Source: Longimicrobiales bacterium (GTDB lineage: Bacteria; Gemmatimonadota; Gemmatimonadetes; Longimicrobiales; Gaopeijiaceae). Taken from it: a stretch of DNA of 64,000 nucleotides. Location of the stretch: contig CBDFIQ010000002.1 in assembly GCA_965248195.1 (NCBI GenBank), forward strand, positions 2,336,001 to 2,400,000, in the 5' to 3' direction. The position numbers and the translations under genes are program-made. This document shows positions 42,450 to 61,615 of this stretch, piece after piece. Numbering within the stretch: the first letter of the stretch is position 1; each line of letters starts with the position of its first letter. The notes below the pieces were generated by a model that worked only from the letters and a program-made list of their open reading frames with translations, was not told the DNA's origin and ran no database searches.

Positions 42450-42455
42450 ATGTGC

Positions 42456-43139
42456 TTACTCGTTGACCGTAAAGGGGTCTGCGAAGAGCGGGACGGTTTC
42501 GACGAGGTCCAGTGGCGGCGCACTGTACACGCAGTCCAACTGGAAGGCATACACCAACTCACCGGTTGGCTCCACAACCTGCTCAGTTTGAACAAGCTGG
42601 ACACTGCGAATGAACGGAGATTCCTGTAGCTGCCTCCAGAACGTCGTCAGAGCGCGGTTATTCCCCGCCCTCCCTCGAACCTGGAACTCGACCGCCACAT
42701 CACCCACCGAGACCTGGATGACCTGAGTCAACCAGGTGTATTCCGGGAGGGCTCTCGCCAGTTCATCCAGGAGATGAGGCCAGACGTACCGATTGGCGTC
42801 GATCTCCTGGATGATCGTCACCTTCTGCGCGATCGAGTCCCGCCGAGCTGTCAGAGTCGCATTTCGCTGGATGAGATCCGCATAGTTGGCCGAGTCCTGG
42901 AGCGCGTCGGCCAGCTCCACCCGGACCTCTGCTTGTCGGGACGAGAGTCCCACGTACCACCATCCCGGAAGGGCGAGGACTCCGAGCCCCACCACGACGG
43001 CCCCGATGGTGTAGGAATCCGAGAGAATGCCCCCCAGATCGGGCATTGATAGCTTCGATAAGATGCCGCCGGCACCACCGCCGCCGCCCTTTGAGGGGCG
43101 CCTTTTCTTCCCGCCAGGTAGAAGATTGACTTCAATCAC
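42456..43139 (-). CDS. pilN: Type IV pilus alignment protein PilN
   Basis: MIEVNLLP, TM, LLDELARALPEYTWL. Confidence 0.9.
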   Translation of the reverse strand: MIEVNLLPGGKKRRPSKGGGGGAGGILSKLSMPDLGGILSDSYTIGAVVVGLGVLALPGWWYVGLSSRQAEVRVELADALQDSANYADLIQRNATLTARRDSIAQKVTIIQEIDANRYVWPHLLDELARALPEYTWLTQVIQVSVGDVAVEFQVRGRAGNNRALTTFWRQLQESPFIRSVQLVQTEQVVEPTGELVYAFQLDCVYSAPPLDLVETVPLFADPFTVNE

Positions 43140-43159
43140 AATCTGTTCCTCGTCGTCGG

Positions 43160-44197
43160 CTAGACCGTCCGCAGGGCCAAGCCGAGCGGTAGAAGGAGCA
43201 TGGGTGCCGCTTCTTCCAGCACCACCGTCCCGGCAGCTCCAGGCTGGACCGGGACCTGGTGGAACGGATTGACCAGGTCCGTTTGCAAGTTCATACGATT
43301 CCCTAGGGCATCAGCCATGCCAGGAATGCGGGCGCCACCGCCACTGAGGTAGATGCTCCCCAAACCTACACCATCCTGACGGGTCATGAGGAAGGCCGCC
43401 GCACGTTCGATCCCGACACCCACTTCGTCGGCCGCAGAATCCACGAGCGACGAGAGGTCGTCGCGCGTTTCACGACCCTGAACGACATCTTCAGCTTGCT
43501 CAGCCGTGAGCCCTTTCTCCCGCTGTAGGTCCTGACGCACCCTTCTGGACCCGAAGGGGATGTCCCGCGTGAGAAGAGGATTTCCAGCCTCGAGGATGTT
43601 CACGTTGGTGGTTTCGTACCCAATGTTCACCAGGGCCACGATCCCCCTCATCGCTTCGGGATGGTTGAGCGCGAAGGCATTGTGGAGCGCAAAGGCATCG
43701 ACATCGATCGCCGCCGGAGAAACCCCCGCGTCGAGAAGCAGGCTCACCTTGTGGTCCACGAGCTCGCGCTTGGCGGCCACCAGAAGGACCTGCATCTGCA
43801 GCCCCTCCTCGAGTGGATCGAGAATCTGGAAGTCCAACTCAACGCTCTTGATGTCGAACGGAACGTGCTGCTCCGCTTCCCACCGGATGACCTCACGAGC
43901 GTCGGATTCCTTCATCCGGTCCATCTCGATTTTCTTGATGATCACGTCGTGCCCTCCCACGGCCGTGATCACATTCGTTCCTTTATCCCCGATCTCTCGG
44001 AACACATCGCGAATGGTGTCGGCAACGAGGCCGGGGTCCATCACCTCGCCCTCTACAATTGCGTCTGCGACCAGGGGACGCATTGCCACCCCGCTGATCT
44101 CGGGCTGATCCCCGGAATGATCGACGACAACGACTTTTACGAAGCCGCTGCCGATGTCCAGCCCTACCGACTTCTTGCTGCGTCCGACGAGGCCCAT
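43160..44197 (-). CDS. pilM: Type IV pilus assembly protein PilM
   Basis: VGLDIGS, EAEQHVPF, LVAAK, LSGGGARIPG, NPF, GLALR. Confidence 0.95.
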   Translation of the reverse strand: MGLVGRSKKSVGLDIGSGFVKVVVVDHSGDQPEISGVAMRPLVADAIVEGEVMDPGLVADTIRDVFREIGDKGTNVITAVGGHDVIIKKIEMDRMKESDAREVIRWEAEQHVPFDIKSVELDFQILDPLEEGLQMQVLLVAAKRELVDHKVSLLLDAGVSPAAIDVDAFALHNAFALNHPEAMRGIVALVNIGYETTNVNILEAGNPLLTRDIPFGSRRVRQDLQREKGLTAEQAEDVVQGRETRDDLSSLVDSAADEVGVGIERAAAFLMTRQDGVGLGSIYLSGGGARIPGMADALGNRMNLQTDLVNPFHQVPVQPGAAGTVVLEEAAPMLLLPLGLALRTV

Positions 44198-44249
44198 TCA
44201 ACGCTCGTCTTATGGGGACAGGAACATATTTTTATACGAATCTTAAATC

Positions 44250-44279
44250 ACGTTACCACCTAATCGTGAGCAGTGTCAA
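44250..44279 (-). promoter_or_regulatory. Putative sigma70 promoter of pilMNOPQ
   Basis: TTGACA-18 nt-TAACGT with TG extension, inside an AT-rich intergenic tract. Confidence 0.55.
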
Positions 44280-44353
44280 GACATTTTTGACCACTTCGAA
44301 AATAGATTTATTGGTAAACATTTGGATCACACCGTGCCCTTGAGGCGCGGACA

Positions 44354-45454
44354 TCAGTTTGAATCCGGCCAGGCCGACTCGGGGATGGGAGCGAGTTCCC
44401 GAAGGGACTCGGCGGCCTCCAACGCGGACAGTGCCGCGCACGCCGAGCCGACAATGCGGGAGCGGCCCCCGAGGAAGACCGAGCCGCGGACGCGGACGAG
44501 TCCGTGGATTTCCGACTCCTCGGTGATCTCGAGGTCACCGGCAACGAGCACGAGCCCGTAAAAGCGGGCGGTAGACCGGAAGGTCACATGCCCGGGGATC
44601 AGCAGGACGCCCTGGCCCTGCCCTCCATTCACGATCAAAGAACCCTCGGAGGTCACCACCGGCCTGTACGCTCCACAGGGGCCCGACGCATCCAGCGGAG
44701 CCCCCCAATTGGTCGGAGAGGGCACGGCACACCGGCCCAGCCCCTGGATCGGCGCCGGCGAGACGGTGCCGGACACGTGAAGGTCCGCACCCTCTATCAG
44801 CGCATCATGCCCCAGGAGACCCAGGGAGGGTAGACGTGGCTCCACCGCACCCGATTCCGGCCCCCTCCCGATCCCGGCCCGTGGATCCTCGTGTAGTTCC
44901 GCCTGAGGCGAAAGCCCGTAAATGAACAGGGTATCCACGTCGGGACCGAAGGGAACACAAGACGCTTCCGGCCACAGAGGTGGCGTATCGTGAATCAGGC
45001 TGGGATCGACCATGCTGCTGGCCTCCACCCGTGTCGATCGGCCGCTCTCGAGGACGCCCCGTGCGGCCGCGTACCTCGCCACAGGGTCCATCGCCCAATA
45101 GAGACCCACCTGCCGATCCCGGCCGGGCTCTGTGTCCAACGACCCCTCAGCAAGGATCAAGAACAACTCCCGCGACAACCGCACCACCTGCGCATCATAT
45201 CGCGCCCGAGGCGGAACGGCGCCTGAGCCCATCGGCACCCACTCCCCCCACGGAAGGGAGTCCGTGCCCGTCATCGAGCGTGAGGTCAGCTTCAGGCCCG
45301 TTTCCGCAGCGAGCCTTCTGGTGAGCACATCCCATCGCGCCCGCGATACGAAAAACTCGGATCGAGTCATCACGAGAAGTGTGTGCCCCACCCCCGTGAC
45401 CGCCAGCAGAAGGAGCAGCACTCCAACCAGCACGTACCCTCTTCGCGTCGGCAT
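44354..45454 (-). CDS. PilX-like minor pilin
   Basis: RRG|YVLVGVLLLL leader lacking Glu5; C-terminal G.GVLL..G..F.GLVLV.G beta repeats. Confidence 0.75.
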   Translation of the reverse strand: MPTRRGYVLVGVLLLLLAVTGVGHTLLVMTRSEFFVSRARWDVLTRRLAAETGLKLTSRSMTGTDSLPWGEWVPMGSGAVPPRARYDAQVVRLSRELFLILAEGSLDTEPGRDRQVGLYWAMDPVARYAAARGVLESGRSTRVEASSMVDPSLIHDTPPLWPEASCVPFGPDVDTLFIYGLSPQAELHEDPRAGIGRGPESGAVEPRLPSLGLLGHDALIEGADLHVSGTVSPAPIQGLGRCAVPSPTNWGAPLDASGPCGAYRPVVTSEGSLIVNGGQGQGVLLIPGHVTFRSTARFYGLVLVAGDLEITEESEIHGLVRVRGSVFLGGRSRIVGSACAALSALEAAESLRELAPIPESAWPDSN

Positions 45455-45469
45455 CGATTCTGGCTTGGA

Positions 45470-46219
45470 TCAACGGTTCTCGGGAGTCCAAAACTGGAGA
45501 GCGGCCGAGCTCGTATCGGCGCTCCGACGTATTCCGTGGCCGACAAGGTTGAAAATGACCCTGTCCACCCGGGCCTCGATGCTCGATCGGTCGTCGTCGA
45601 ACACGTCCAGCGTCAGGGGCTGCCGGCCACCCCGCCCTCGGCGATACCGAAGAGCTCCGCCGCTTACGTGATAGCTCCCTCGCTCGAAGATCCTGGCCAC
45701 CAACGCACCCGAAACAGGCGGATCGAGGGTCCACACTTCGGAGTGTCCGCCCAGATCCATTCCGCAGGACCGTGGCCCCGATACCCGCCCCGTCAGGTCC
45801 GCCCGCCGCCATCCATCTGCCGTCAGGATCAGAACCGAGTCCTTTACGGGATTAGCCGTCCGCTCTCCACGGTAGGCCACGACAATATTTCCGGGCTCGC
45901 TGCGCCACTCACACACCGGCCCCCATCCACGAAAAGCCCGGAGTGACAGACTGTCGGGCGCCGGACCGATCCAGTCCCTTCCCCTCACTCCCGCCCGAAG
46001 TTCTTTCCCGATCACGATCGCCGCGAGACGTCGAGCCGACAGTAGATCCATTTCGGACCTCAATCTGGACGCGACGGTTTGTTGATGGGCGAGAGCACGC
46101 CAGGCAAACGAGATTACCACGAGCCCCAGAAGCAGAGACACGAGCACCTCCACGACCGTGACGCCGTAACGCCTAGAAGGCCGTTGAAGGAGTACAGTGG
46201 GCCGCGTTGCGGATGCCAC
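45470..46219 (-). CDS. PilW-like minor pilin; original start (ATG 46486) cut off by the repeat element, probable replacement GTG at 46219
   Basis: RRYG|VTVVEVLVSLLL prepilin motif; upstream codons of the track ORF derive from the repeat. Confidence 0.75.
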   Translation of the reverse strand: MASATRPTVLLQRPSRRYGVTVVEVLVSLLLGLVVISFAWRALAHQQTVASRLRSEMDLLSARRLAAIVIGKELRAGVRGRDWIGPAPDSLSLRAFRGWGPVCEWRSEPGNIVVAYRGERTANPVKDSVLILTADGWRRADLTGRVSGPRSCGMDLGGHSEVWTLDPPVSGALVARIFERGSYHVSGGALRYRRGRGGRQPLTLDVFDDDRSSIEARVDRVIFNLVGHGIRRSADTSSAALQFWTPENR

Positions 46220-46478
46220 GGTCCTAGCTCCTAGGCGGAGCGACGACGCCATAGCCGTAGCTATGGCTAGGAACTCCAACAACGGAGATGGGGCCGTGCC
46301 ACCGCAACCCTTCAACTTGTAAGGTCATGCCCTTCATGTTCGTGGGCACAGGGCGGTTGTGCGGTTGATCCTGCGTCTCTCCTCCTCGCCGTAGCGTTGC
46401 TACGCCTCGTCGTCGTTCCTTGTCTGAACGCGCACAAGCGCCCTGTGCGCGACCCGCTGTACTCCTTCAACGGCCTTC
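46176..46478 (-). mobile_element. MITE-like structured repeat, copy 2 (303 bp)
   Basis: TIRs GAAGGCCGTTGAAGGAGTACAG / CTGTACTCCTTCAACGGCCTTC; reverse-complement homologue of 230-532. Confidence 0.9.
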
Positions 46479-46805
46479 CTGAACATCCGGTTGGTCCAGG
46501 CTCAGGCCCACGGACACACTGGCGCCGGGTCCACCTTGGAAGGTGACAGTGACGAGCCCGTCCCCCTCACGCGTCCAGAGGAGCAACCCCTTTTCAGTTT
46601 CGATCGAGCCCGGCCCACCCCAACCCGTGAATGAAAGTGAGTCAGCCAGCCACTCCACCGCCCGGGATGCGGATTCCAACGCGGCGGCCGCGAGGAGCGT
46701 CCTTTGGGCCTGCAGGGTCATCGCCAAGACACCCAGTATTCCCACCTCGAACACGACGAGAGCGACGGTGATTTCCACGAGGCTGAACCCGCCCCGGCCC
46801 CTCAC
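46467..46805 (-). CDS. PilV-like minor pilin (last codons EGR* supplied by the element TIR)
   Basis: RGG|FSLVEITVALVVFEVGILG. Confidence 0.8.
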   Translation of the reverse strand: MRGRGGFSLVEITVALVVFEVGILGVLAMTLQAQRTLLAAAALESASRAVEWLADSLSFTGWGGPGSIETEKGLLLWTREGDGLVTVTFQGGPGASVSVGLSLDQPDVQEGR

Positions 46806-47230
46806 TCCCGCCGGATCCGTCCATAGGCCGAGATGATCAATCGGGCGACTGCTGATCCGCGGGTGAGCGTGACCGAACTAGCAGCCATACGCCCCAAGCC
46901 CGACGCGTCGAAGTGGAGTTCGACCGTGGGACGTCCACCGGAGAGCACCAGCTCTGTTCTCCAGGTCGCTCCAATGTCCACCCGGTGCAGTAACTCTCCC
47001 TTGGCCTCGATCCTGATCTCGGCGGGATTTCGGACGACGATCAGGCTCGAGCCCCCTCGCCGGAGCGCTTCGGCGCGAGCCCGTGTGATCAGTCCAACGA
47101 GCTCCTCCCGCGCGCCTGTCACCGAAAGACGCTCCCGGACGCTCCGGCCCACTGGAAAAGACAGGCTTGCCGCCAGGGCCAGGAGTGCCAGAACTCCCGT
47201 GAGTTCGAAAAGAGTGAAGCCGCGACGCAT
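46802..47230 (-). CDS. FimT/GspH-like minor pilin
   Basis: MRRG|FTLFEL, ARAEALRRG, FDASG, IISAYGRIR. Confidence 0.85.
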   Translation of the reverse strand: MRRGFTLFELTGVLALLALAASLSFPVGRSVRERLSVTGAREELVGLITRARAEALRRGGSSLIVVRNPAEIRIEAKGELLHRVDIGATWRTELVLSGGRPTVELHFDASGLGRMAASSVTLTRGSAVARLIISAYGRIRRE

Positions 47231-47283
47231 GGACCGACGTTACCGGCGCTCCCCGGGCGCCGGAATGCCGCGTTAGGCCAAAC

Positions 47284-48639
47284 TCAACCCAGTCCGTAGT
47301 CCTGTATTTTGTAGCGGAGGGCACGCGGGGAAAGTTCGAGCAACCCCCCCGCCTTCGACCGGTTCCCGCCCGTACGCTCCAAGGCCCGCTGAATGAGCTG
47401 CCGCTCCAGCTGTGCGGAGCGGCGCTTCACGGAAAGGTCGTCCGACTCATAGATCGCCTCGACCGTCACCCCCATATGACCCAGCCGAGCGGAAAGCGCC
47501 TCCTCCGCCAGCTCCGTGCCTTCGGAGAGAACCGCGGCCTGCTCGAGCACATTCTCCAGCTCACGGATATTACCCGGCCACGGATAGGCGAGCAGAAGCT
47601 TCATCGCAGCCGGCGAGATCGCGGCCACCTTCACGTTGAGCCGCTGCCTCAGGCGCTCGAGCAAGTGCTGGGTAAGGTCCGGAATCGCCTCCGTCCTCTC
47701 CCGCAGGGGCGGGAGGTGGATGGGAATCACCGCCAGCCGATAGTAGAAATCTTGGCGGAACTCGCCCGATTGCACCGCCGCCCGCAAGTCGATGTTCGTG
47801 GCCGAAACGATCCGGACGTCTACCTGAGACGTGGCGGTCCCTCCCAGACGCCTGATCTCACCGTCCTGCAATGCACGCAGCAACTTCACCTGAAGGGGGG
47901 TTGGCAGCTCCCCGACTTCGTCGAGAAACAGTGTCCCGCCCTCGGCCGCCTCGAACAACCCGGCCCGATCATTTTCGGCCCCAGTGAACGCTCCACGCAT
48001 GTACCCGAAGAACTCGGATTCAAGCAGCGTTTCGGGAATGGCACCACAATTGACTGGAACAAAAGGTTTGTCGGCCCGGTCGCTTTCGCGGTGGATCAGC
48101 CGGGCCATTAACTCCTTGCCGGTACCAGACTCCCCGGTCAGCAACACGGGGGACCGATGGCGGGCGACCTTGGTCGCCGTCTCCAGAGCCCGAATCATGG
48201 TCGGTGAGCGAGCCACGATGTCCCCGAGCCGACGTTCCGCGCTCACCTCGGCGCGCAGCCGCCCGACTTCCGTCCGAAGCTGCTCCCTCTCCTCCGCCTT
48301 CCGGATCGTAAGGAGGACCTCGTCGGCGCCGAACGGCTTGGGTAGGTAGTCGTATGCGCCCTCCTTCATCGCCCCGATGGCAAGCTCCATGTTCCCATAC
48401 GCGGTCATCACGATGACGAGCGCTTGACCCTCCGCCTCACGATACTTTGCGAGGAACTCCAAGCCGTCCATTTGGGGCATACGTACGTCGCAAAGGATAA
48501 TCTGGGGGTTCTCATTCGCGGCTATCGCCAGGCCTTCCTTGCCATGCGCCGCGAGGAGCGCGTCGTGTCCGCCCTCCTCGAGAATGAGTGTCAGAGATTT
48601 GCGAAGTCCCTGATCGTCGTCGATCACGAGGACCTTCAT
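47284..48639 (-). CDS. Sigma54-dependent response regulator (NtrC/PilR family)
   Basis: VIDDD..CDVRMP receiver, [17 protein letters not shown]. Confidence 0.95.
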
Positions 48640-49949
48640 TCGACCTCCTGTCTCTCTATTGCCTCAGGGTACCGAGCTCCAACGGCTCCGTACTCCTCCA
48701 AAGTGGGTTCCTTCGCCGTGATCGCCTCCGGCAGCCGAACCTCGAAGCGCGCTCCCCCCTCGGGTGCGCTCTCCACGTCGATACGCCCACCCATTCCCGC
48801 GACGAGGCGGGCGGAAATGAAAAGGCCCAAACCGGTTCCCTTCCCGGGCTCCTTGGTGGTGTAGAAGGGATCGAAGACGCGGGTCTGATCGGCGGAAGGG
48901 AGACCTGTTCCGTTGTCGGACACCGCCACGACGACGACCTTCCGGGCGGTGTCGAGGGTGCCGAGAGCCTCTGCCGAGAAGGCGCGAGCCACCCGGCGCC
49001 TGTGCAAATAATTGACGCCGGGCGGATCATCTCCCCGTCTCTGGAGGGGGTTGGCCGCCGCACCATCCTCCGACCAAAGAGCAACCTCGATCTTGGGGGC
49101 GTCCAGGCCTTTCACCGCATCCGTCGCGTTCAAAAGCAAGTTCACGAGCACCTGTTCCAGGTGCCGAGGGTCCATCAAGACAAGAGGACATGCGTCATCG
49201 AGGGTCCAGGAGTGTTCGATCCGTCCGAGTTGGCCCTGGTTCTCCAACAGATCGCGCACACCTTCGATGACTTCATCGACCCGAACCGGAGTGATCTCGT
49301 CGGGCTGGGGCCGGGCAAAATCGAGAAGTCCTCGCACGATGCCATCGATGCGCTGTGCCTCGGAACGGATCGACTCCAGTAGCTCCGGATCTCCCTGGTC
49401 CGCCTCGATGCGACGGAGGGCGACGTCGGCATACCCGATGATCGCGGTCAGCGGATTTCCGACCTCGTGCGCGATGCCAGCCGCCAGAGTTCCCACCGAA
49501 GCCAGCCGGGCAGCCTGGATGACCTCGTTGCGAGCTTCGACCAGCTTCACGTTGGTATCATCGAGCGACCGGACATTCTCGGCCAAGACCTGCTGGCCGG
49601 CGATGAGCCGGTCGGCCATCGCATTCACGCTCTCGGTGATACTCCTGAGCTCGAGGCCATTGGGGATTTCGAGCCGGTGCCGGTAGTCTCCGTCGGCGAT
49701 CTGTTTCACTCCCAGGACCAACTCGTCCACCGGCTCCAGGAGATTCTTCTTGAGGGCCCAGCCTCCGAACGTGAGAACGATAACCAGGTCCACCGCCACG
49801 ATGACCAGAATGAAGACCGTAGCCTCGCCCGTGGAACGGAGAAAGGGAAGCACCAGGCTGATGGCGATACCCAAAAGGAGGGTGACTCCCCCGAATAGAA
49901 TCCCCAAGGAAACAAGCAGCTCACGACGAAGGGGTGTCGGGGAACTCAT
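48636..49949 (-). CDS. HAMP-domain sensor histidine kinase
   Basis: Two TMs, HAMP, AHEVGNPL, NLLLNA, DNGTG, FYTTK..GTGLGL. Confidence 0.94.
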   Translation of the reverse strand: MSSPTPLRRELLVSLGILFGGVTLLLGIAISLVLPFLRSTGEATVFILVIVAVDLVIVLTFGGWALKKNLLEPVDELVLGVKQIADGDYRHRLEIPNGLELRSITESVNAMADRLIAGQQVLAENVRSLDDTNVKLVEARNEVIQAARLASVGTLAAGIAHEVGNPLTAIIGYADVALRRIEADQGDPELLESIRSEAQRIDGIVRGLLDFARPQPDEITPVRVDEVIEGVRDLLENQGQLGRIEHSWTLDDACPLVLMDPRHLEQVLVNLLLNATDAVKGLDAPKIEVALWSEDGAAANPLQRRGDDPPGVNYLHRRRVARAFSAEALGTLDTARKVVVVAVSDNGTGLPSADQTRVFDPFYTTKEPGKGTGLGLFISARLVAGMGGRIDVESAPEGGARFEVRLPEAITAKEPTLEEYGAVGARYPEAIERQEVE

Positions 49950-50072
49950 GTTCGTATGGCGCCTGAGGCAAAAAAGTGCGAACGCCGGAGGTTCTCTCCT
50001 CCGGCGTCCTCGATGAAGACTACTTCTAACTTGTGCAGGGGACGGGTCCGCTGCAACGATGGGGATTTGGCC

Positions 50073-50462
50073 CTAACGCGTGCAGGCGATGACCCCCTCC
50101 TCCGGACCGGGGTCCCCGCCGGCGGCCGCCGCATTCCCCTGGTACATGCCACAGTGCTCCGTGGGGAGACCCGCATGGGAGGCAGTCGCAGCCCAGCCCG
50201 AGCCGGTAGCCTCGTTGATCGTGATGGTCACTCCATCACTCACGGACCCGCCGACGAGGGCGACTGAAGCGCCGTAGAAAAAGTTGGAGTTGTGGTACAT
50301 CTCCTGCTGCGTCGCCAAGTTCTTGAGATCGCTCTTCATCGAGGTAAGGAATGCGTTCTCTCGCGCCGAGGAGAACTTCGGAACGGCGACGGAAGCCAGG
50401 ATGCCGATGATCACGATGACGATGAGGAGTTCGACCAGCGTAAAGCCTCTTTGCATGCCCAT
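50073..50462 (-). CDS. Type IV major pilin-like protein 2
   Basis: QRG|FTLVELLIVIVIIGILASVAVPKF; C-terminal Cys pair; paralogue of the adjacent pilin. Confidence 0.9.
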   Translation of the reverse strand: MGMQRGFTLVELLIVIVIIGILASVAVPKFSSARENAFLTSMKSDLKNLATQQEMYHNSNFFYGASVALVGGSVSDGVTITINEATGSGWAATASHAGLPTEHCGMYQGNAAAAGGDPGPEEGVIACTR

Positions 50463-50504
50463 GCTCAATCCCTCTTTTCGTCTCATGCCTGGAGTGGAAG
50501 CGAG

Positions 50505-50539
50505 AGAGCGTGGCCCGGGAAAGGCCCGAGCCACGCTCT
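50505..50539 (-). terminator. Hairpin between the two pilin genes
   Basis: AGAGCGTGGC / GCCACGCTCT 10-bp outer stem with an inner CGGG/CCCG stem. Confidence 0.6.
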
Positions 50540-50575
50540 TCGACCGAAAGCACACGGTGCCTCCGAAGTCCTGCC

Positions 50576-50971
50576 TTATTGCGTGCAGGCCATCTCACCC
50601 GGACTCCCCGGTACGGCGGCGCCAAGTGACACCGCAGGCCCGGTCCCATAGTAGATCGCGCAGCCCTCGGTCGCGGCCAACGCTAAGTGCGTCGACGTCG
50701 CGTTCCAACCGGTGGAGGTGCCCGTCGGAGTGACGGTCACGCCGTCGGACTGCACGAAGCCGAGCGACGTGACGTTGGCGGTGTAGGAATACTCGTCCGA
50801 ATAGTAGATCTCCTGCTGGCTAGCAAGATTCTTCAGGTCGGACTTCATGGCCGCAAAATAGGCCTTCTCACGCGTCGCAGAGAACTTCGGAATGGCGATG
50901 GCCGCCAGGATTCCGATGATCACGACCACGATGAGGAGCTCGATCAGGGTGAAACCCTTGTTGTCCCGCAT
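50576..50971 (-). CDS. pilA: Type IVa major pilin
   Basis: AGGAG RBS; MRDNKG|FTLIELLIVVVIIGILAAIAIPKF; upstream sigma54-type promoter. Confidence 0.92.
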   Translation of the reverse strand: MRDNKGFTLIELLIVVVIIGILAAIAIPKFSATREKAYFAAMKSDLKNLASQQEIYYSDEYSYTANVTSLGFVQSDGVTVTPTGTSTGWNATSTHLALAATEGCAIYYGTGPAVSLGAAVPGSPGEMACTQ

Positions 50972-51025
50972 GATGATAACTCCTAGATAGGATGACACTT
51001 GTGAACATTCGATATGCCCCCTGAG

Positions 51026-51042
51026 TGCAAACGCTGGTCCAA
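51026..51042 (-). promoter_or_regulatory. Putative sigma54 (-24/-12) promoter of pilA
   Basis: TTGGACCAGCGTTTGCA = GG-N10-GC with TTGCA; two sigma54 activators in the locus. Confidence 0.65.
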
Positions 51043-51115
51043 AAGTCGGCATGACTTCTTAAGTGGTTGTGGTTTAACACTTTGTACCAATATCACTCGA
51101 CGTCCTTCGTCCCCA

Positions 51116-53020
51116 CTATCGACCGTCCGGTGACGGATTTTGCGAAGCATTGGCATTTTCAGAGCTTCTTAGCACAGCCTGAAACCTGTCAATTTGGCCG
51201 GGTTCATCCGGAGGTCGCACCCTGGTACGGGCGCTGTCGAGCGATTCGAGCGCTCTAGCCGTGTCTCCCGACTGGGCGTACGCTTCCGCGAGCCAGAACC
51301 ACTGCTGCCAGCGGTGTCCTTCACCCGCTTCGATCGTTCGGCGGCGGGCTTGGACCGACTCTTCCCAGCGGCCCTCCCGCGCCAAGGAACGGGCCAGGAG
51401 ATGGTTCGCAACCAAGTCTTGGGACCCGAAGAAGGCGATGGCAGCCTCGGCCGCTTCGATCGCGCCCGGATAATCCCCTTCGCCGTAATGGATGCCGGCG
51501 AGAAGGCGGGCAGCGATCCCTTCATCCGGGTATTCTTCCCGAGCCCGACGGAGAAGGCCCTTGGCGGCGTGCGTCTGTCCGTTGACGAGGAGCTGCCGCC
51601 CCACCTCCACGAGGACAGCGTAGTTTCCGTGCAAGAGACTGATCGTAATTCGGTAGGCGGCGTTACCCGCCTTCCTGTCGCCGATCATATACTGTGCGTC
51701 TCCGAGGAGCCACTGCGCCCGTCCTGACTCCGGGTGCTCACGGATCAGAGTTTCGAAAACGCTGACGGTGTCTCGCCAAGTGGCGTTCCGGGCGACGGTT
51801 CGAAGCGACATGAGCATCAAAACGAGGATCAGCGTCGCCTCGGCCACAAGGCGACGCTCTTTGTACAGCTCGCCCCCGATCCACGCGAATAGCGCCACGA
51901 ATCCGACCGACGGCAGATAAAACGTGCGCTCCGCGAGGAGGACCCCGGAGAGGAAGAGCACGTTCGAAACCGGCGACAACGTGATCACGAGCCACAGGAC
52001 ACCGAATGAGAAGAGACGAGGAGGAGTACGGGCCACCCCGAGCGTCTGCCTCCCCCACAGACGCAGGGCCAATCCGAGCGTCCCCAGGAGGAGAAGAGCC
52101 CCTAGCATACCACTTCCTGTCCAGCCGAGGGCGAGAGGAATTACGGCCGGCGCATAGTCGGCGCTCAAGTCGAGAGGGAAAAAAAGCAGCCGGAAGTAGT
52201 GAGGCCAGGTCGACGCAACGGTCCAGATTCTCGGGACTTCCTCCTGCAAGAGCCTCGCACCCAACGGGGGCAACGGGCTGGCCAGGCTGCCAAGCACCAC
52301 AAAGCGAGCCGTCAGAATGAGCGCAGCAGCGGCCGTCAGACTTACGTAGATCGCCCACCGGCGGCGAACGTAGGAGAGCGCCTCCTTGACCCCGACATCG
52401 TCACGCGCCCCGTCAAGTAGGAAGAGGACCCCGAGGAGCGTGATGGCGCTCTCCTTCGCTAGGAAGGCGAGCACGAACAGGAGCGTAATGGCTGTGCCCG
52501 GCAGAAGCGTGATCCGCTCTCCCGCCCGTAGAAAGATCAAGCATGCGCCCAGATAAACCGCCGAGGAGAAAATCTCGGCCAACCCCACGACGTTCGCCAC
52601 GGCCTCGACATGGACGGGATGAACCGCGAAGAGCAGTCCCGCGACGAACGCGAGCGCAAGGGGCGCGAGTTCGGCCAGCACCAGCACCACGAGCGCGGTA
52701 ACGACCCCGTGTAGCAACACGTTCGTCACGTGGAACATCGCGGGATTCTCGCCCCAGACCGCCCATTGGATGCCGTAAAGCGCCGTCGTCACCGGTCGCC
52801 ATAGTCCCAGAGCCCGGCCGAACTCGTTCGGCCAGTAGGGAGAGGCCATCGCCTCCGGCAGAGTGTCGAGATCCTGGATCCGCGTATTCTGGACAATGAG
52901 AGGGAGGTCGTCGAAGGCGAAGTCGTTGAGGACGCTGTTCGCCGATAGAAGGACCGCGGCCGCACCCGCAAGGAACGCGGCCGAGCGGACCGACCGGAAG
53001 GGAGAATCCCACGTCCTCAT
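51116..53020 (-). CDS. TMTC-like GT-C glycosyltransferase with C-terminal TPR-like repeats
   Basis: FAFDD, WRPVT, HPVHVEAVANVVG, AKE, LSADY, LAERTFYLPS, RNATW, then helical repeats. Confidence 0.85.
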   Translation of the reverse strand: MRTWDSPFRSVRSAAFLAGAAAVLLSANSVLNDFAFDDLPLIVQNTRIQDLDTLPEAMASPYWPNEFGRALGLWRPVTTALYGIQWAVWGENPAMFHVTNVLLHGVVTALVVLVLAELAPLALAFVAGLLFAVHPVHVEAVANVVGLAEIFSSAVYLGACLIFLRAGERITLLPGTAITLLFVLAFLAKESAITLLGVLFLLDGARDDVGVKEALSYVRRRWAIYVSLTAAAALILTARFVVLGSLASPLPPLGARLLQEEVPRIWTVASTWPHYFRLLFFPLDLSADYAPAVIPLALGWTGSGMLGALLLLGTLGLALRLWGRQTLGVARTPPRLFSFGVLWLVITLSPVSNVLFLSGVLLAERTFYLPSVGFVALFAWIGGELYKERRLVAEATLILVLMLMSLRTVARNATWRDTVSVFETLIREHPESGRAQWLLGDAQYMIGDRKAGNAAYRITISLLHGNYAVLVEVGRQLLVNGQTHAAKGLLRRAREEYPDEGIAARLLAGIHYGEGDYPGAIEAAEAAIAFFGSQDLVANHLLARSLAREGRWEESVQARRRTIEAGEGHRWQQWFWLAEAYAQSGDTARALESLDSARTRVRPPDEPGQIDRFQAVLRSSENANASQNPSPDGR

Positions 53021-54845
53021 CGTTGGCGGACGGGGGCGGGTGCCCCGTCCCCGCGGGCCTGGCGCTCCTGGCTCGCAAGAACATCAGCACGCTGAGAGGC
53101 GGCGTCGGCTTCTTCGGAGCGGCCGGCCAACTCCATGAGCTCGCTCATGCGACGCCATTCCTCAGAATCATCGTCGGCCACACCGAAGGACGCCCATCGC
53201 GCCCGAATGGCCGCGTCGTAGTCTCCCTTCGCCACATAACTCTCGGACACGAGCTTCCACAGGTCTCGGTCGGATCCAACGAGCGACAAGCCCTGGAGCG
53301 CCACCGCGTGTCCTTCCCGGCTCCGGCCCTGGTTCAGCCGCTGTTCAGAGAGCACCTGCCATGCGACGGGGTGCGTGGGAAACAACTCGATGGCGTGGAC
53401 GAGCAGCGACTCTGCCTCGACCCACCGCTCCCCCCGCCCATAGAAACGCGCGACCTCCACGAGCAGGCTGTATCCCTCCGGAGCCAGCTCAAGCGCCGTC
53501 TGGTAATAACGATCCGCCTCCTCGTACTCGCCTACGTTGTCGAGACCCTGGGCGCGTGCCCTGATCGCCATCAACGACTCCGGGTGCTCTTCTCCAAGCG
53601 TCGTCAACATCGTGAACGTGCTCATCCACGAGGGGTTTCTGAGCGCGGTCCGCACCATGAAGGCGCTACACAGGACCCCCGCGCCCACCAAGAGAATGCC
53701 CAGGGATGTCCTGCGCTCACGGGCCGTCCACGACACGACTCCCGCGGCCACGAAGGCAAGCCCGACGGACGGCAGGTAAAGCGTTCGCTCAGCCAACAAC
53801 ACGCCCGTCGGGATGAGTAGGTTGGTAACGGAAGGATCGCGATGCCGAACCAGGCGATGCCGAGCGCCACCAGCCGTTCCCTGGGCCAAAGGAAGATGAC
53901 GGCCGCAGCACCACCAAGAATCGTGAGTAGGCCCAGGATCACATCGGGCCCCCATGTCAACGCTGGAAAGAGTACCGCCGGCGCGTAGTCCACCACGAGG
54001 TCCAGCGGGAACACCAGGAGCCGGAGATAGTGTGGCCAGACCGCCAGAGATGTAAGGATTCTTTGGCCCGCCGAGAGACCCACGAGAGCCGGTGCGGGTA
54101 CTTCGCCCGAAACCGAACCCAACATCAGGAATCGGGCGCCCAAAAACGCCGCCAGAAGGGCGGCGGTCAGGAGGAACACCGGCAGATCGGTCCGAACACG
54201 GTCGCTTACACGCTCATCGCCGGTCCGCACCAATGCTATGAGAACCAGCAGCGCCGGGAGCGTCACTGCCATTTCTTTGGAGCCGAGACCCAGCACATAG
54301 AGCGCCCCGATGCCGAGGAGGCGGGCGGCCCTCCAGGACGGTGAAAGCCCCCGCCCCTTCAGGAAGAGCAGACACGCCCCCAGCACGAAGAGCGCCGAGT
54401 ACAACTCGGAACGCCCCACGACGTTTGCCACCGCCTCGCTATGGACGGGATGTGCGGCAAAGAGCGCACCCCCGACGAGAGCCGGAAGTGTGGCCGACAG
54501 CGGTAGAATCAGTAAGAACACCACCAGCGATACAGCAGTGTGAACGGCTAGGTTCACGAGGTGAAAGCCCGCCGGATGGCCGTTCCACAGCCTCCATTCC
54601 AACGCGAAGCTCGAAAGCGTAACCGGCCGATAGAGGCCCGCACCGCTAACCGCCTGAGGCCAATAGGCGGAGGTCAGCACCTCGACGACCCCTCCCTCGG
54701 CCACGACGGAGCGTCCCACGATGATGGTATTGTCGTCGTAGGCGAAGCCGTTGAGCACGGAGTTGGCGTACGCCGCCACCGCCACGAACAGCACCAGAAG
54801 CGCGGCGCGCCACGGCGGGATGGCAGAAAGCTGCTTAAGGGTCAC
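53017..54845 (-). CDS. Second TMTC-like GT-C/TPR protein, split by a one-base frameshift near 53830
   Basis: FAYDD, YRPVT, HPVHSEAVANVVGRSE, SKE in ORF 53622-54845; LAERTLYLPS, RNPSW and TPRs in ORF 53017-53955; adding one C at CTTCCGTT restores ILPVTNLL. Confidence 0.82.
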
Positions 54846-54863
54846 CTGGATGCGGAGTCCGGA

Positions 54864-55757
54864 TCAGTCCGGATCGGCCACAGGAGGAAGGCCGGCCTCG
54901 GACCCTCCCCCGCCTTCCGAAGGGGCGGGAAGCGCCGGACGCTGCCCGTCCACGAGAGCGCGCCCCTCCCACGGCTGCACCTCGGGCGCCTGCCAAGGAT
55001 CGATTCTTGGCCCGAAGAGATTGCAGCGAAGGATATAGTAGAGGGCGGACACGCCGTCCTTCCAGTTGATCTTCTTCCCCTCCTCGTACGAGCGCCCGTC
55101 GTAACTGATCGGGAGCTCGTAGATGCGAGCCCGCGCCTGAGCCAATCGGGCCGTCACCTCCGGCTCGAATCCGAAACGGTTCGCCGAGAGAGGCAATCGC
55201 TTCAGAAGATCCGCATGGATGACTTTATAGCAGGTCTCCATGTCCGTGAGGTTGAGGTCGGTCAACATGTTGCTCAGCAACGTCAGGAAACGATTCCCTA
55301 TCATGTGCCAGAAGAACAGCACCCGGTGGGGTCCGCCGAGAAAGCGTGACCCGAAAACGGCATCGGCCTTCCCGGCCAAAATCGGCTGCATGAGTGCCGG
55401 CAGTTCGTGTGGATCATACTCCAGATCCGCGTCCTGAATCGCAATGATATCGCCAGTGGCCCGCTCGAATCCGGCCCGGAGCGCAGCACCCTTCCCCTGA
55501 TTCACCTCCTGGAACACGAGAATATCGATCACCCCTTCGTCGTGTAGGCGCGAAAGCAGATCGTGCGTGCCGTCCGTGGATCCATCGTCTACCACGATCA
55601 CTTCGACGTCCAGGCGGACCTCACGTACCCGCTTGAGGAGGATCTCGACACTCCGGATCTCGTTGTAGGCGGGGACAACCACCGAGAGCCTCACCCGGTC
55701 CCAGGCAAGATCGTCGTGCCTTCTCTTATGCATTTCGCGGAAACTGGGCATCATCAT
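54864..55757 (-). CDS. GT2 polyprenyl-phosphate glycosyltransferase (DPM1/ArnC-like)
   Basis: VVPAYNE, VDDGSTDGT, NQGKGAA, QDADLEYDP, GSRF, LTDMETCYK, FGFEPE. Confidence 0.93.
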   Translation of the reverse strand: MMMPSFREMHKRRHDDLAWDRVRLSVVVPAYNEIRSVEILLKRVREVRLDVEVIVVDDGSTDGTHDLLSRLHDEGVIDILVFQEVNQGKGAALRAGFERATGDIIAIQDADLEYDPHELPALMQPILAGKADAVFGSRFLGGPHRVLFFWHMIGNRFLTLLSNMLTDLNLTDMETCYKVIHADLLKRLPLSANRFGFEPEVTARLAQARARIYELPISYDGRSYEEGKKINWKDGVSALYYILRCNLFGPRIDPWQAPEVQPWEGRALVDGQRPALPAPSEGGGGSEAGLPPVADPD

Positions 55758-55845: not shown

Positions 55846-57207
55846 TCAGACCTCGATCCCGTACCGGTTGAGCTTCCGGTACAAGGTGGAGGGATCGATG
55901 CCGAGAACCTCCGCCGCCTTCGACTTGTTCCCCCCCTCGGCCGTAAGGACCCACTGGATGTACGCCCTCTCGATCACCTCCATCGAAGGATTCGAGGGGA
56001 GGTGATCCGTGACCAAGGGTTTCGTGTCGGTGGCCCGTACGCCTTCCGGCAGGTCAGCCACAGAGATTTCCGGCTTGGACGCCACGACGGCCGCCCGCTC
56101 CAAGGCGTTCTCGAGTTCCCGGACATTTCCGGGCCAGTCATAGGCACACAGCGCCTCTAAAACATCCTCCCCAAGGGTTTTTTCTCCTTCTCGCTCCGCC
56201 AACGAAACGAGAAAGCGGTGGGCCAGAATCGGGATGTCGTCCTTTCTTTCACGGAGCGGAGGGAGTTGTAGCGCGATGACGTTGAGCCGATAGTAGACAT
56301 CACTCCGGAACCCTCCGCGTCGGATCTCCTCATTCAGGTCGGCGTTGGTGGCGGCCATAATCCGAACGTCGATCTGCCTGACCTCGGTCGAACCCACGGG
56401 AATGACTTCGCGCTCCTGCAGAGCGCGGAGGAGCCTGACCTGCGTCGCAGGGGACATTTCGCTGATCTCGTCCAGGAAGAGCGTCCCGCCGTTAGCGGCC
56501 TCGAAGAGTCCCATTTTGTCCCTGACGGCACCGGTGAAGGCTCCTTTCACGTGGCCGAAGAGCTCGCTCTCGAGAAGCCCCTCGGGAAGCGCCCCGCAGT
56601 TCACCGACAAGAAGGTGGCTTCGGCCCGGCCACTGAGCGCGTGGATGTAGCGGGCCAGCACCTCTTTACCGGATCCGCTCTCCCCCGTGATCAGTACGGT
56701 GGACTCCGTCGGCGCCACCGTCTCCGCCAACTTGAGGACCTCGACGAACGACCGGTTCTTTCCCGTCGGCCGGTCGGTCGGCGACATGGACTGCCGGCGG
56801 ATCTCCTTCTTGAGGGCCTTGTTCTCCACCCGGAGTTGCCTCGTTTCCGCGGCTCTACGGCAGATGGCCAGAAGTTCCTCGTTGGCGAAGGGCTTTTGGA
56901 GGTAGTAGTACGCCCCCTCGTTGACAGCCCGTACCGCCGTCTGAAGCGATGCCTGAGCGGTCATCAATATCACGGCGGTCTCGGGATCGACCTCGTGCGC
57001 CTTCGCCATTACCTCGAGGCCGGTCATCCCGGGCATTCGAATGTCGGTCAGGACGATGTCCGGCAAGGTGTCGGGAAGCATTTCGACGGCCTCTCGCCCG
57101 CTGAGCGCCGACACCACTTCGTAGCCATTACCCTGAAGCAGAATGCGAAGCGTGTCGAGGATGCCGGACTCATCATCCACCAGGAGAATCCTTCTCTCCT
57201 TGCTCAT
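55846..57207 (-). CDS. Sigma54-dependent response regulator (PilR-like)
   Basis: LVDDE..TDIRMP, GESGSGKE, GAFTGA, HTH. Confidence 0.95.
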   Translation of the reverse strand: MSKERRILLVDDESGILDTLRILLQGNGYEVVSALSGREAVEMLPDTLPDIVLTDIRMPGMTGLEVMAKAHEVDPETAVILMTAQASLQTAVRAVNEGAYYYLQKPFANEELLAICRRAAETRQLRVENKALKKEIRRQSMSPTDRPTGKNRSFVEVLKLAETVAPTESTVLITGESGSGKEVLARYIHALSGRAEATFLSVNCGALPEGLLESELFGHVKGAFTGAVRDKMGLFEAANGGTLFLDEISEMSPATQVRLLRALQEREVIPVGSTEVRQIDVRIMAATNADLNEEIRRGGFRSDVYYRLNVIALQLPPLRERKDDIPILAHRFLVSLAEREGEKTLGEDVLEALCAYDWPGNVRELENALERAAVVASKPEISVADLPEGVRATDTKPLVTDHLPSNPSMEVIERAYIQWVLTAEGGNKSKAAEVLGIDPSTLYRKLNRYGIEV

Positions 57208-58883
57208 ACGGCCGCCTGTTGTTTCGTCGCAGAAGCGACATCCGTGCCCGGCAACAGAACCACGAATCGAGCTCCACCCCCAGCCACCTCCTCAGCGTAG
57301 ACGGCGCCACCGTGCGCCTCGACGGCACGATGCACCACCGCCAGGCCGAGACCGCTCCCACCTTTACGCGTGGTATAAAATGGGGCGAAGATGCGCCCGA
57401 TATCCTCGGGTGGAATCCCCGGTCCGGAATCCTGAACGCTCAAACACACCGGCTGGGAAACGGTGGATCCAGGTAGCCGGTCCTCGACGGCCCGATTCTC
57501 GACGGAGACCCGGACGGTACCCCCGGGGCCGCTGAACTGAACCGCGTTGAGGATCAGGTTGAAGACCAGGCGGTGAAGGAGATCCGCGTCCCCCGGTAGG
57601 GTCAGGCGGCCTTCGAGGCCCTGCTCGTCGATGCGAATCCCTGCTTCGCAGTCAGGATGTTGTTTCACCAATGTGATGGCTTGCCTGACCACGCGGGTAA
57701 AGTCCACCCTGGCCTTCGCGCTGAGGCGCATCACCGAGAAATCGAGAAATTCGTTGAGCAACCGGCTCAGGCGATCCGATTCGGCCAGAACCAGCCGTTG
57801 GAGGAGCGCACGATCCTCGACGGGAAGCGTGGGGCTGTCGAACTGTTCCACGGCGCTGCGTATCGAAGCCAACGGATTCTTGATTTCGTGGGCGAGGGAA
57901 GCACTCAGTTCAGCCACGGCCTCGAGTCGTTCGTTTCTGCGATTTAGGGCCTGGATACGCTCCAGATCCGTGATATCCTGAAAGATCGCCGTGACGGATG
58001 GGCCTTCCCCCTCGCGACTTTCGAGCAGGGTTGTGCTGATGCCCAGCACCAGGTTCCCCGACGCTCTCTTGACGGCCGTCGTTTGGCGGCTGACAGGGCG
58101 GCGCCCGTCGATGCTCCTTCGGAGCGCCTCGGCAAGCCCCGGCGCCAGCTCCTCTACCACGTCCAAGATGGGGGCGCCGCGCCACTGCTCGAAGCTCAGA
58201 TCCAAGAATCGTTCGCCAGCTCTATTGAGGTACCCGAGTCTGCCGCCATCGACGAGGGTAAGCACACCTGCGGAGATGTTCGTGAGAATGTCCCCCGTAT
58301 CGAGCCGCAAGCGGACGAGTTCGGACTGGACTTCTCCGAGCGCGAGCCCGGTGCTTTGGACGCGGTTCCCCAGCCAACCCGTGAGGAGAGCAACGACGGC
58401 GAAAAGCCCGATCTGTAGCCCAACGGTATACAAGGGTAGGGTCTGCGGACCGCCCCATACGAGGCTCGCGAAGTAAAGAATGGAGGAGAGGGCCCCGATG
58501 AGGAAGGCTCCCGACAGGGGCAATAGAAGAGCCCCCTCTGTCATCACCAAGAAATAAAGGGGGGCGAAGGCGACGTCGCCGCCGCCCGACGTGATATAGA
58601 CGACGGTCGTGACAAGCGCCGCGTCGAGAATGACCTGGCCGTACATGAAGTTCCGGCCCACCGGGCGGCCCCGCACTTCGGTGTGCCACACGGAGGCGAG
58701 GGTGAGCGCCAACGTGGCCAAAAACATGAGCGTCGCTATGCGCGTGGCCTCCGCGGGAGCGGAGAACCAGGCCACCATTATGCCGACGAAAATTCCAAGG
58801 GCCAGAGTCATTCGGCCGACGTAGACCCAACGAAGGAGTCGGTTTCTGTCGAATTCGTACTTCTTTGGAGTCTCCGGCCTCAA
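57204..58883 (-). CDS. PilS-like membrane sensor kinase with PAS-like domain
   Basis: About six TMs, PAS-like ..IFQDIT, AHEIKNPLASI, DSGPG, GSGLGL. Confidence 0.9.
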   Translation of the reverse strand: MRPETPKKYEFDRNRLLRWVYVGRMTLALGIFVGIMVAWFSAPAEATRIATLMFLATLALTLASVWHTEVRGRPVGRNFMYGQVILDAALVTTVVYITSGGGDVAFAPLYFLVMTEGALLLPLSGAFLIGALSSILYFASLVWGGPQTLPLYTVGLQIGLFAVVALLTGWLGNRVQSTGLALGEVQSELVRLRLDTGDILTNISAGVLTLVDGGRLGYLNRAGERFLDLSFEQWRGAPILDVVEELAPGLAEALRRSIDGRRPVSRQTTAVKRASGNLVLGISTTLLESREGEGPSVTAIFQDITDLERIQALNRRNERLEAVAELSASLAHEIKNPLASIRSAVEQFDSPTLPVEDRALLQRLVLAESDRLSRLLNEFLDFSVMRLSAKARVDFTRVVRQAITLVKQHPDCEAGIRIDEQGLEGRLTLPGDADLLHRLVFNLILNAVQFSGPGGTVRVSVENRAVEDRLPGSTVSQPVCLSVQDSGPGIPPEDIGRIFAPFYTTRKGGSGLGLAVVHRAVEAHGGAVYAEEVAGGGARFVVLLPGTDVASATKQQAAV

Positions 58884-61204: not shown

Positions 61205-61294
61205 TTGCTCGATAGGCCGCCCGGTCACCGCAATGGCGCCGCGGTCGGACGGCTAACCGGATTGTACCCTACTTCGATTCCCCTTCGCAAATGG

Positions 61295-61615
61295 GAAGGC
61301 TGTTGAAGGAGTACAGTGGGCCGCGTTGCGGATGCCACGGTCCTAGCTCCTAGGCGGAGCGACGACGCCATAGCCGTAGCTATGGCTAGGAACTCCAACA
61401 ACGGGGGCACCACGCGCAGCGTGGTCGGGGCCGTGCCACCGCAACCCACAAACATGCAAGGTCATGCCCTAAATGGTGGAGGGCACAGGGCGGTTGTGCG
61501 GTTGATCCTGCGTCTCTCCTCCTCACCGTAGCGTTGCTACGCCTCGTCGTCGTTCCTTGTCTGAACGCGCACAAGCGCCCTGTGCGCGCCCCGCTGTACT
61601 CCTTCAATAGCCTTC
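61295..61615 (-). mobile_element. MITE-like structured repeat, copy 3 (321 bp), flanked by AAATGG direct repeats
   Basis: TIRs GAAGGCTGTTGAAGGAGTACAG / CTGTACTCCTTCAATAGCCTTC; AAATGG at 61289-61294 and 61616-61621. Confidence 0.9.

What the first reader, a model, noticed from the sequence alone, without database searches (positions are those of the whole stretch)
50073..55757. Candidate TMTC-type pilin glycosylation system: GT2 + two TMTC-like GT-C/TPR genes directly upstream of major pilins
Seen: a co-oriented run of GT2 (54864-55757), TMTC-like A (53017-54845), TMTC-like B (51116-53020), pilA and pilin 2. Both membrane proteins carry TMTC-like motifs (F.[FY]DD, RPVT, HPVH.EAV..VVG, KE, AERT.YLPS, RN..W, TPR tail). 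Known: animal TMTC1-4 transfer mannose from a lipid-phosphate donor to Ser/Thr on cadherin beta-strands; DPM1-like GT2 enzymes make such donors; characterised pilin glycosyltransferases include PglL/TfpO and TfpW. Seen: PilA has 16 Ser/Thr in mature residues 56-104, including an alternating VTVTPTGTST stretch. Inference: a donor synthase plus two transferases that glycosylate the pilins, possibly one paralogue per pilin or per site. I know of no characterised bacterial example, but cannot check the literature here.
Basis: partly seen in the sequence, partly recalled or inferred. Interest (0 to 1): 0.85.

Follow-up and report, generated by a model that had tools for sequence, protein, structure and literature searches.

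The report
Pilin-linked TfpW/TMTC-like sugar transferases
Right before its pilus-subunit genes this bacterium carries two membrane sugar-transferase genes and a predicted lipid-sugar synthase that likely coat the pilus with sugars, much as the known Pseudomonas enzyme TfpW does, so it is an untested but widespread variant of a known design.

Summary
Observation confirmed, with one correction: TMTC-like A is split by a one-base deletion near 53828 that is very likely an assembly error. The host is a Longimicrobiales (Gemmatimonadota) genome. The membrane domain models as GT-C (top 20 fold matches) and keeps most TMTC ligand motifs, but not the one modelled on mannose, so the sugar is unknown. 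Linkage to pilA is strong: 67 of 69 informative order-level loci, 38 of 45 sampled genomes across the phylum, and a separate proteobacterial branch of the family shows the same pilA-transferase-GT2 trio. What differs is the donor: a DPM-like GT2, no arabinofuranose pathway. Against: GT2 stays beside pilA in five genomes lacking the transferase, Ser/Thr richness persists without it, and paralogue and pilin numbers do not match strictly. The scan noted this system before on other genomes. Verdict: new variant of a known kind; pilin O-glycosylation about 65% likely; interest 0.5.

The parts
54864..55757 (-). GT2, DPM-synthase/ArnC-like; predicted polyprenyl-phosphate sugar synthase without a membrane anchor
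   Evidence: PF00535 117 bits; best PDB match dolichol-phosphate mannose synthase 5mlz E 2.6e-17, then ArnC E 2.3e-14; all NCBIfam models below cut-off; highest 19-residue hydropathy 0.98
53017..54845 (-). TMTC/TfpW-like GT-C with TPR tail, paralogue A; one-base deletion near 53828 in this assembly, very likely an assembly error
   Evidence: two frames; extra base in all runs laid; 38 of 41 relatives open; TPR hits; A-type clade
51116..53020 (-). TMTC/TfpW-like GT-C with TPR tail, paralogue B (634 aa); the copy next to pilA
   Evidence: AlphaFold2 models pLDDT 83.6 and 88.4; GT-C fold Z up to 20.1; invariant D37 D38 R75 P76 K189 E190 D288 E364 R365 Y368 in 43 of 43
50576..50971 (-). PilA, likely major type IVa pilin (125 aa mature, two Cys); predicted acceptor
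   Evidence: N_methyl 41 bits; closest solved pilins Geobacter PilA, Thermus PilA4, Myxococcus PilA; Ser/Thr 0.26 from residue 53
50073..50462 (-). Second pilin (123 aa mature, from the MQRG-FTLVE start), 50% identical to PilA; possible second acceptor
   Evidence: Ser/Thr 0.17
49980..50009 (-). Terminator-like hairpin (12 pairs, T run) after pilin 2
   Evidence: consensus match only, 7 found against 5.1 expected in the region
55846..58883 (-). PilS/PilR-like two-component pair upstream (context)
   Evidence: 6TM_PilS, HisKA, Sigma54_activat
39626..49949 (-). Second sensor/sigma-54 regulator pair, minor pilins and pilMNOPQ-like genes downstream (context)
   Evidence: the pilM-Q names are my reading of the translations and were not scanned against a library

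Best explanation
The two membrane proteins have a predicted GT-C fold with a TPR tail and likely attach sugar to Ser/Thr residues of the neighbouring type IV pilins, using a lipid-phosphate-linked sugar that the GT2 is predicted to make. Inferred steps: the GT2 loads a sugar from a nucleotide-sugar onto polyprenyl phosphate at the inner face of the membrane; the lipid-sugar is flipped (a GtrA-family gene lies elsewhere in the genome); the DD loop, KE and ERxxY motifs on the periplasmic face transfer it to membrane-embedded pilin, with the TPR tail helping to select the acceptor. Likely sites lie in the loop after the long helix (residues about 56-73) and on the exposed strand residues T86/T88. 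Paralogue B would be the core enzyme; A may serve other sites, the second pilin or chain extension. The sugar is unknown. The likely benefit is pilus stability or phage shielding, as shown for TfpW.
For: Shown by calls: GT-C fold, the 20 best of 48,161 chains are all GT-C-fold proteins (AglB Z 20.1, rmsd 4.4, 317 aligned; Pmt1-Pmt2 18.7; Pmt4 18.3; STT3B 18.2; ArnT 17.2), then a drop to 7.9. TMTC motifs M1 DD, M4 KE, M5 D and M7 ERxxY invariant in 43 of 43. Pilin directly downstream in 67 of 69 informative loci, GT2 upstream in 66 of 70 (80 best of 387 matches). Linkage survives loss of both regulator pairs (L044, L052, L053, L057, L088, L090) and inversion (L132, L134, L136, L144, L145, L157); 38 of 45 hand-chosen genomes of the phylum have a copy within 6 kb of a pilin. 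A separate proteobacterial branch (hhalign 99.7%, E 2e-26; own clade, support 0.996) sits beside pilA in 16 of 28 regions and 18 of 20 regions, 16 of these 20 with a GT2; one has the pilA-transferase-TfpX/TfpZ-like layout of PA7 (L221). From papers: TfpW is 646 aa, 11 helices, DDX in loop 1, TPR tail, beside pilA, O-links sugar to Ser/Thr, motif YX6PFX7P; Y-x6-P-x-x7-P is in 35 of 43 of our proteins. Thermus PilA4, a match to PilA, is glycosylated in the equivalent loop (PMC7203116).
Against: No glycan was observed; everything about activity is inference. GT2 remains intact directly before pilA in 5 genomes with no transferase match, two of them single-contig, 98% complete and without PMT_2 genes, so GT2 and transferase are not obligate partners. 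PilA stays Ser/Thr-rich without the transferase (0.24, n=9 same family, against 0.277, n=102). 21 of 60 phylum regions have no pilin within 6 kb (some end at a contig edge), this genome has a third, stand-alone paralogue, and in the other classes of the phylum 1 of 17 domains is pilin-linked, so the family also serves other acceptors. TfpW's sequence was not obtained, so homology to it rests on architecture and one motif spacing; the strict F of that motif is present in 1 of the 35, and none of the 19 proteobacterial proteins that I checked has the spacing. Related genomes are not independent observations.
Confidence: 0.65

Rival explanations
1. The transferases glycosylate many exported proteins, pilin being one acceptor or none; their place in the pil locus is inherited synteny.
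For: Stand-alone copies are mixed among pilin-linked ones in the tree; some lie beside Ig-like or TonB-receptor genes (L131, L159, L087); other classes of the phylum keep tandem copies beside panC.
Against: Adjacency to pilA survives inversions and loss of flanking genes and recurs in a distant branch at the proteobacterial pilA locus.
Confidence: 0.15
2. The transferases do modify pilin, but with a donor made elsewhere (for example a lipid-pyrophosphate oligosaccharide, as OST-type enzymes use); the GT2 has a separate job.
For: Orphan GT2-pilA in 5 genomes; best fold match is the OST AglB, tied within about 2 Z with the Pmt enzymes; L221 and L213 lack a GT2 in the region fetched.
Against: GT2 upstream in 66 of 70 loci; a GT2 of the same class, only 24-31% identical, lies beside the proteobacterial branch; GT2 and transferase are both missing beside pilA in other genomes (L265, L274).
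Confidence: 0.12
3. The acceptor is a lipid or a growing glycan (ArnT-like or chain-extending role), not protein.
For: ArnT and ALG12 score Z 17.2 and 16.6; ArnC is the second PDB match of the GT2; in other families PMT_2/GT87-like GT-C and methyltransferase genes are inserted in the cassette, so chain extension may occur there.
Against: The TPR tail and the DD...KE...ERxxY set follow TMTC and TfpW, both protein-acting; single-copy cassettes (19 of 55) have no other enzyme to start a glycan.
Confidence: 0.08

Closest known systems
TfpW of Pseudomonas (para)aeruginosa group IV strains Pa5196/PA7 (pilin D-arabinofuranosyltransferase; bioRxiv 10.1101/2020.04.19.049825, whole text read)
   Same: About 640 aa, about 11 membrane helices, DD in the first outer loop, ArnT-like GT-C fold, C-terminal TPR, gene touching pilA, Y-x6-P-x-x7-P spacing in loop 4, lipid-linked sugar donor, Ser/Thr-rich pilin.
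Animal TMTC1-4 (CAZy GT105), cadherin O-mannosyltransferases (PMC7801869 passages and section 9 part 1; PMC11292533 passages)
   Same: GT-C plus TPR architecture; motifs M1, M4, M5 (as DY), M7 kept; weak DUF1736 hits in the right place; a eukaryotic DUF1736 cluster scores 0.93 in the Atlas.
   Different: M2 keeps only [WYF]RP, the SHKS part modelled on mannose is replaced; M6 lacks its second Pro; M3 Arg present in A, absent in B; DUF1736 below cut-off; no cadherin acceptor known here. PMC7801869 already notes uncharacterised prokaryotic full-length homologues.
DPM1/Ppm1-ArnC-GtrB class of polyprenyl-phosphate sugar synthases (GT2)
   Same: Sequence match to Pyrococcus-type DPMS 5mlz and ArnC, DxD motif.
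   Different: No membrane anchor; below the cut-off of every named NCBIfam model; sugar unknown.
PglL/TfpO O-oligosaccharyltransferases of pilins
   Same: Pilin acceptor; tfpO also adjoins pilA.
   Different: They transfer ready-made oligosaccharides; our proteins showed no Pfam hit other than TPR.

Membership tests
GT-C superfamily | Multi-helix membrane fold shared with OST, PMT, ArnT | tested here: met
   Top 20 VIA matches all GT-C-fold, Z 20.1-9.2; Foldseek top rows DPY19/STT3/AglB but none at E <= 0.001
GT-C superfamily | Acidic motif in first outer loop | tested here: met
   D37 D38 invariant in 43 of 43
TMTC / GT105 | GT-C domain followed by TPR repeats | tested here: met
TMTC / GT105 | Motifs M1-M7 of PMC7801869 Table 4 | tested here: inconclusive
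   M1, M4, M7 met; M5 as DY; M2 only RP; M3 Arg in 14 of 43; M6 one Pro
TMTC / GT105 | Pfam TMTC_DUF1736 above gathering score | tested here: not met
   12.7-20.4 bits against 27 in 11 genomes; no hit
TMTC / GT105 | Transfers mannose from lipid-phosphate to Ser/Thr of beta-strands | not testable with these tools
   needs an assay
TfpW-type pilin glycosyltransferase | Gene adjacent to the major pilin gene | tested here: met
   67 of 69
TfpW-type pilin glycosyltransferase | About 11 helices, DDX in loop 1, C-terminal TPR, about 640 aa | tested here: met
   634 aa; model; hydropathy finds 9 strong segments at threshold 1.6
TfpW-type pilin glycosyltransferase | YX6PFX7P motif in loop 4 | tested here: inconclusive
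   Spacing in 35 of 43, F in 1 of 35; strict form in 5 of 391 stored proteins
TfpW-type pilin glycosyltransferase | Sequence homology to TfpW itself | not testable with these tools
   No named TfpW among listed hits; no Pseudomonas genome reached
TfpW-type pilin glycosyltransferase | D-arabinofuranose donor pathway (DprE1, DprE2, UbiA-like) in the genome | tested here: not met
   No PF04030 match; DprE1-like query best E 0.001, no HAD-UbiA match; genome 91.8% complete
DPM1/GtrB-like GT2 | GT2 fold with DxD and similarity to DPMS/ArnC | tested here: met
DPM1/GtrB-like GT2 | Makes polyprenyl-phosphate sugar | not testable with these tools
   needs an assay

The most novel reading that the evidence does not exclude
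TfpW and the animal TMTC enzymes are branches of one family whose main bacterial job is pilin glycosylation; the pilA + TMTC-like + GT2 cassette is one of the commonest pilin glycosylation systems of environmental Gram-negative bacteria (matches in 87 of 151 Gemmatimonadota and 166 of 301 genomes of one gammaproteobacterial family), adds single sugars from a lipid monophosphate as TMTCs do, and divides sites between paralogues as TMTC1-4 do, giving a small bacterial model for the structure and acceptor choice of TMTC enzymes.
Probability: 0.35. Interest if true: 0.75.

Novelty: new variant of a known kind. Interest (0 to 1): 0.5.

Why it matters
If right, TfpW-style pilin glycosylation is not a Pseudomonas oddity but a common system with exchangeable donors (arabinofuranose pathway or a GT2-made lipid-sugar), and since TfpW glycans block pilus phages (bioRxiv 10.1101/150227, passages) it may be a widespread, overlooked defence. 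A three-gene cassette with a 125-residue acceptor would also be a simple way to study TMTC-type catalysis: no TMTC or TfpW structure appeared in my PDB searches, and how TMTCs choose their acceptor is stated as open in PMC11292533. It is not a new kind of system, and the scan has met it on other genomes.

Tried and rejected
Pseudogene reading of gene A: rejected. Full-length Foldseek search returned only TPR proteins; the membrane domain had to be folded alone. Sequence search of the PDB with the membrane-domain profile: 0 hits. One paralogue per pilin: transferase/pilin counts in 55 complete cassettes were (1,1) 13, (1,2) 6, (2,1) 4, (2,2) 26, (3,2) 6; not strict. Ser/Thr richness as evidence: linked 0.277 (n=102) against 0.205 in all transferase-less controls (n=27, which include two doubtful frames, L273 and L278, and distant pilins) but 0.24 in the 9 same-family controls; kin are not independent, so I do not use the p-value. 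Sigma-54 site before pilA: no match there and no shared motif in 72 upstream regions; no sigma-70 site. Getting TfpW: primers in the preprint are an image; Kus 2008 is not held; homologue and plasmid searches gave no named TfpW; two family searches reached non-Pseudomonas-looking families (166 of 301; 0 of 63). Literature: TMTC+bacterial+pilin 0 papers; TfpW+TMTC 1 irrelevant hit; pilin+glycosylation+Gemmatimonad 2 irrelevant; some searches gave listings only, apart from the papers cited. The library lacks most subscription papers, so absence in print is not shown. Earlier-findings look-ups returned nothing. No complex prediction was run (enzyme with substrate).
Full report
Observation. The window is G000:C2:2336001-2400000 of a 4.86 Mb, two-contig genome; named homologues and loci place it in Longimicrobiales, Gemmatimonadota. 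The five genes are present, co-oriented and in the stated order between a PilS/PilR-like pair and a second sensor/regulator pair followed by minor pilins and pilM-Q-like genes. Gene A reads in two frames. All seven distinct runs laid carry one more C behind 53828, one contig being otherwise identical over 355 letters, and 38 of 41 A-type relatives are open, so the break is very likely an assembly error. These are contigs, not raw reads.

What the proteins are. B folds with pLDDT 83.6; its membrane domain alone (pLDDT 88.4) matches only GT-C-fold chains in the first 20 ranks of 48,161 (AglB Z 20.1, Pmt1-Pmt2 18.7, Pmt4 18.3, STT3B 18.2, ArnT 17.2), with a fall to 7.9 at rank 21. Foldseek agrees in rank but without E <= 0.001. 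Against Table 4 of PMC7801869, DD, KE, the D of DW and ERxxY are invariant in 43 of 43 aligned domains; M2 keeps only RP, M6 one Pro, and the M3 Arg is in A but not B. DUF1736 scores stay below cut-off but land in these genes. The GT2 is closest to DPM synthase and ArnC, has no membrane anchor and fits no named model. A GtrA-family gene lies at C2:180916. An arabinofuranose pathway was not found (genome 91.8% complete).

Neighbourhood. Of the 80 best of 387 genome loci, 67 of 69 with enough downstream DNA have a pilin next and 66 of 70 a GT2 upstream. Six loci have lost both regulator pairs but keep GT2-transferase-pilA. In the phylum 87 of 151 genomes match; I fetched 60 regions from 45 of the 87, chosen by hand for long contigs: 39 regions and 38 genomes have a pilin within 6 kb, six of them with the transferases inverted yet still adjacent. 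In other families further GT-C (PMT_2, GT87-like) and methyltransferase genes are inserted in the cassette. In the other classes the family is mostly not pilin-linked. Through a genome whose record is titled Proteobacteria (L036, G187) I reached that phylum: the profile found a 647-aa gene between two pilins with Beggiatoaceae homologues. Its family (A3; 99.7% to A2) matched 25 of 401, 66 of 301, 166 of 301 and, with the joint profile, 0 of 63 genomes in four draws. It adjoins a pilin in 16 of 28 regions, three of the rest being cut by contig ends, and in 18 of 20 hand-chosen regions, 16 with a GT2. L221 has pilA, transferase and a TfpX/TfpZ-like gene (149 bits, cut-off 200); L174 has a member beside DprE1-, DprE2- and UbiA-like genes. 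In a FastTree tree of 194 of 285 domains (redundancy-reduced, Longimicrobiales subsampled, midpoint root) the Gemmatimonadetes and the proteobacterial pilin-linked sets are separate clades with unlinked lineages between them; A and B are old paralogues, A grouping with the stand-alone third copy of this genome. 'Alone' labels there include contig ends.

Results against. In five genomes without a transferase match the GT2 orthologue, motifs intact, sits directly before pilA (one search had no positive control, but same-genus genomes matched); two are single-contig and lack PMT_2 genes too. Recent loss of the transferase with a lagging GT2, or a second role, would both explain this. PilA stays Ser/Thr-rich there. 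Paralogue and pilin numbers differ in 16 of 55 cassettes.

Mechanism. Shown: genes, predicted fold, motifs, linkage. Inferred: lipid-sugar synthesis, flipping, transfer to pilin, sites, purpose. The best-conserved hydroxyl positions in 102 aligned pilins are S69 (99%), T86 (88%), T58 (80%), T88 (78%) and position 59 (73%). Thermus PilA4 carries glycans at Ser59, Ser66 and Ser71 in its loop 55-77 (PMC7203116 passages) and aligns to PilA; Pa5196 pilin is modified mainly at Thr64 and Thr66.

Comparison. TfpW (bioRxiv 10.1101/2020.04.19.049825, whole text read, figures not held) has the same size, helix count, DDX loop, TPR tail and position beside pilA, and its YX6PFX7P motif has the spacing seen in 35 of 43 of our domains. 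So the system works like TfpW; membership is not proven because the sequence could not be compared and the donor pathway test failed. It resembles TMTC but fails the DUF1736 cut-off and lacks the mannose-contact motif. PMC7801869 (passages, section 9 part 1) already notes uncharacterised prokaryotic TMTC homologues. Also seen as passages: PMC12369383, PMC11841053, bioRxiv 10.1101/150227, PMC11292533. No supplements were read; those of the TfpW preprint are closed and its alignment figure may hold the sequence blocks needed. My searches found no paper linking TfpW with TMTC or describing the GT2 trio, within a library that lacks most subscription papers.

Verdict. A real, conserved cassette; most likely pilin O-glycosylation with a GT2-made lipid-sugar (0.65); a new variant of the TfpW kind rather than a new kind. 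Earlier notes of this scan describe the same design on other genomes and gave me the TfpW lead, which I then checked in the paper. Interest 0.5.

Noticed in passing
G000:C2:1589607-1591322 (L101:9607-11322, minus): Third, stand-alone TMTC-like paralogue (572 aa) beside an epimerase and an NHL-repeat gene; groups with A-type in the tree.
   Followed up: partly
L257, L258, L259, L260, L285: Orphan GT2 directly before pilA in genomes with no TMTC-like match; two also lack PMT_2 genes. Unexplained.
   Followed up: partly
L111, L128, L137, L139, L141, L143, L146 and others: Extra GT-C genes (PMT_2, GT87-like), SAM methyltransferases and large spermidine-synthase-like membrane proteins inserted between pilR and pilA: possibly longer or methylated pilin glycans.
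   Followed up: partly
L162, L165, L167: Three tandem TMTC-like genes of about 710-830 aa with long TPR tails after panC and an unknown 460-480-aa gene in another class of the phylum; no pilin nearby.
   Followed up: partly
L174:3678-9441: TMTC-like gene beside DprE1-, DprE2- and HAD-UbiA-like genes in a proteobacterial genome, with no pilin in the region: TfpW's donor pathway with another acceptor?
   Followed up: partly
family of G790: 166 of 301 genomes carry the family, usually as a tandem pair; their neighbourhoods (L223-L252) were fetched but not analysed.
   Followed up: no
G073: 13 PilA-like genes scattered over several contigs in a genome without the transferase; possible pilin variation.
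   Followed up: no
L022:12217-13197: A transposase gene lies between transferase B and pilA in a same-genus genome.
   Followed up: no
L036 (G187:C198): A contig 85% identical to gene B in a genome titled Proteobacteria; probably a mis-binned contig. Its upstream genes differ from the pil locus.
   Followed up: partly
window 50716-50919 and 55000-55407: Contig depth is several-fold higher over the pilA 5' part and the GT2 core, most likely many related organisms matching these conserved stretches.
   Followed up: no
window 61316-61455 and 46200-46315: Similar text ('PLLEFLAIATAMASSLRLGARTVASATRPTVLLQ') appears in two ORFs (61225-61455 and the start of 45470-46315), suggesting a short repeated element; the true pilW start is probably later.
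   Followed up: no
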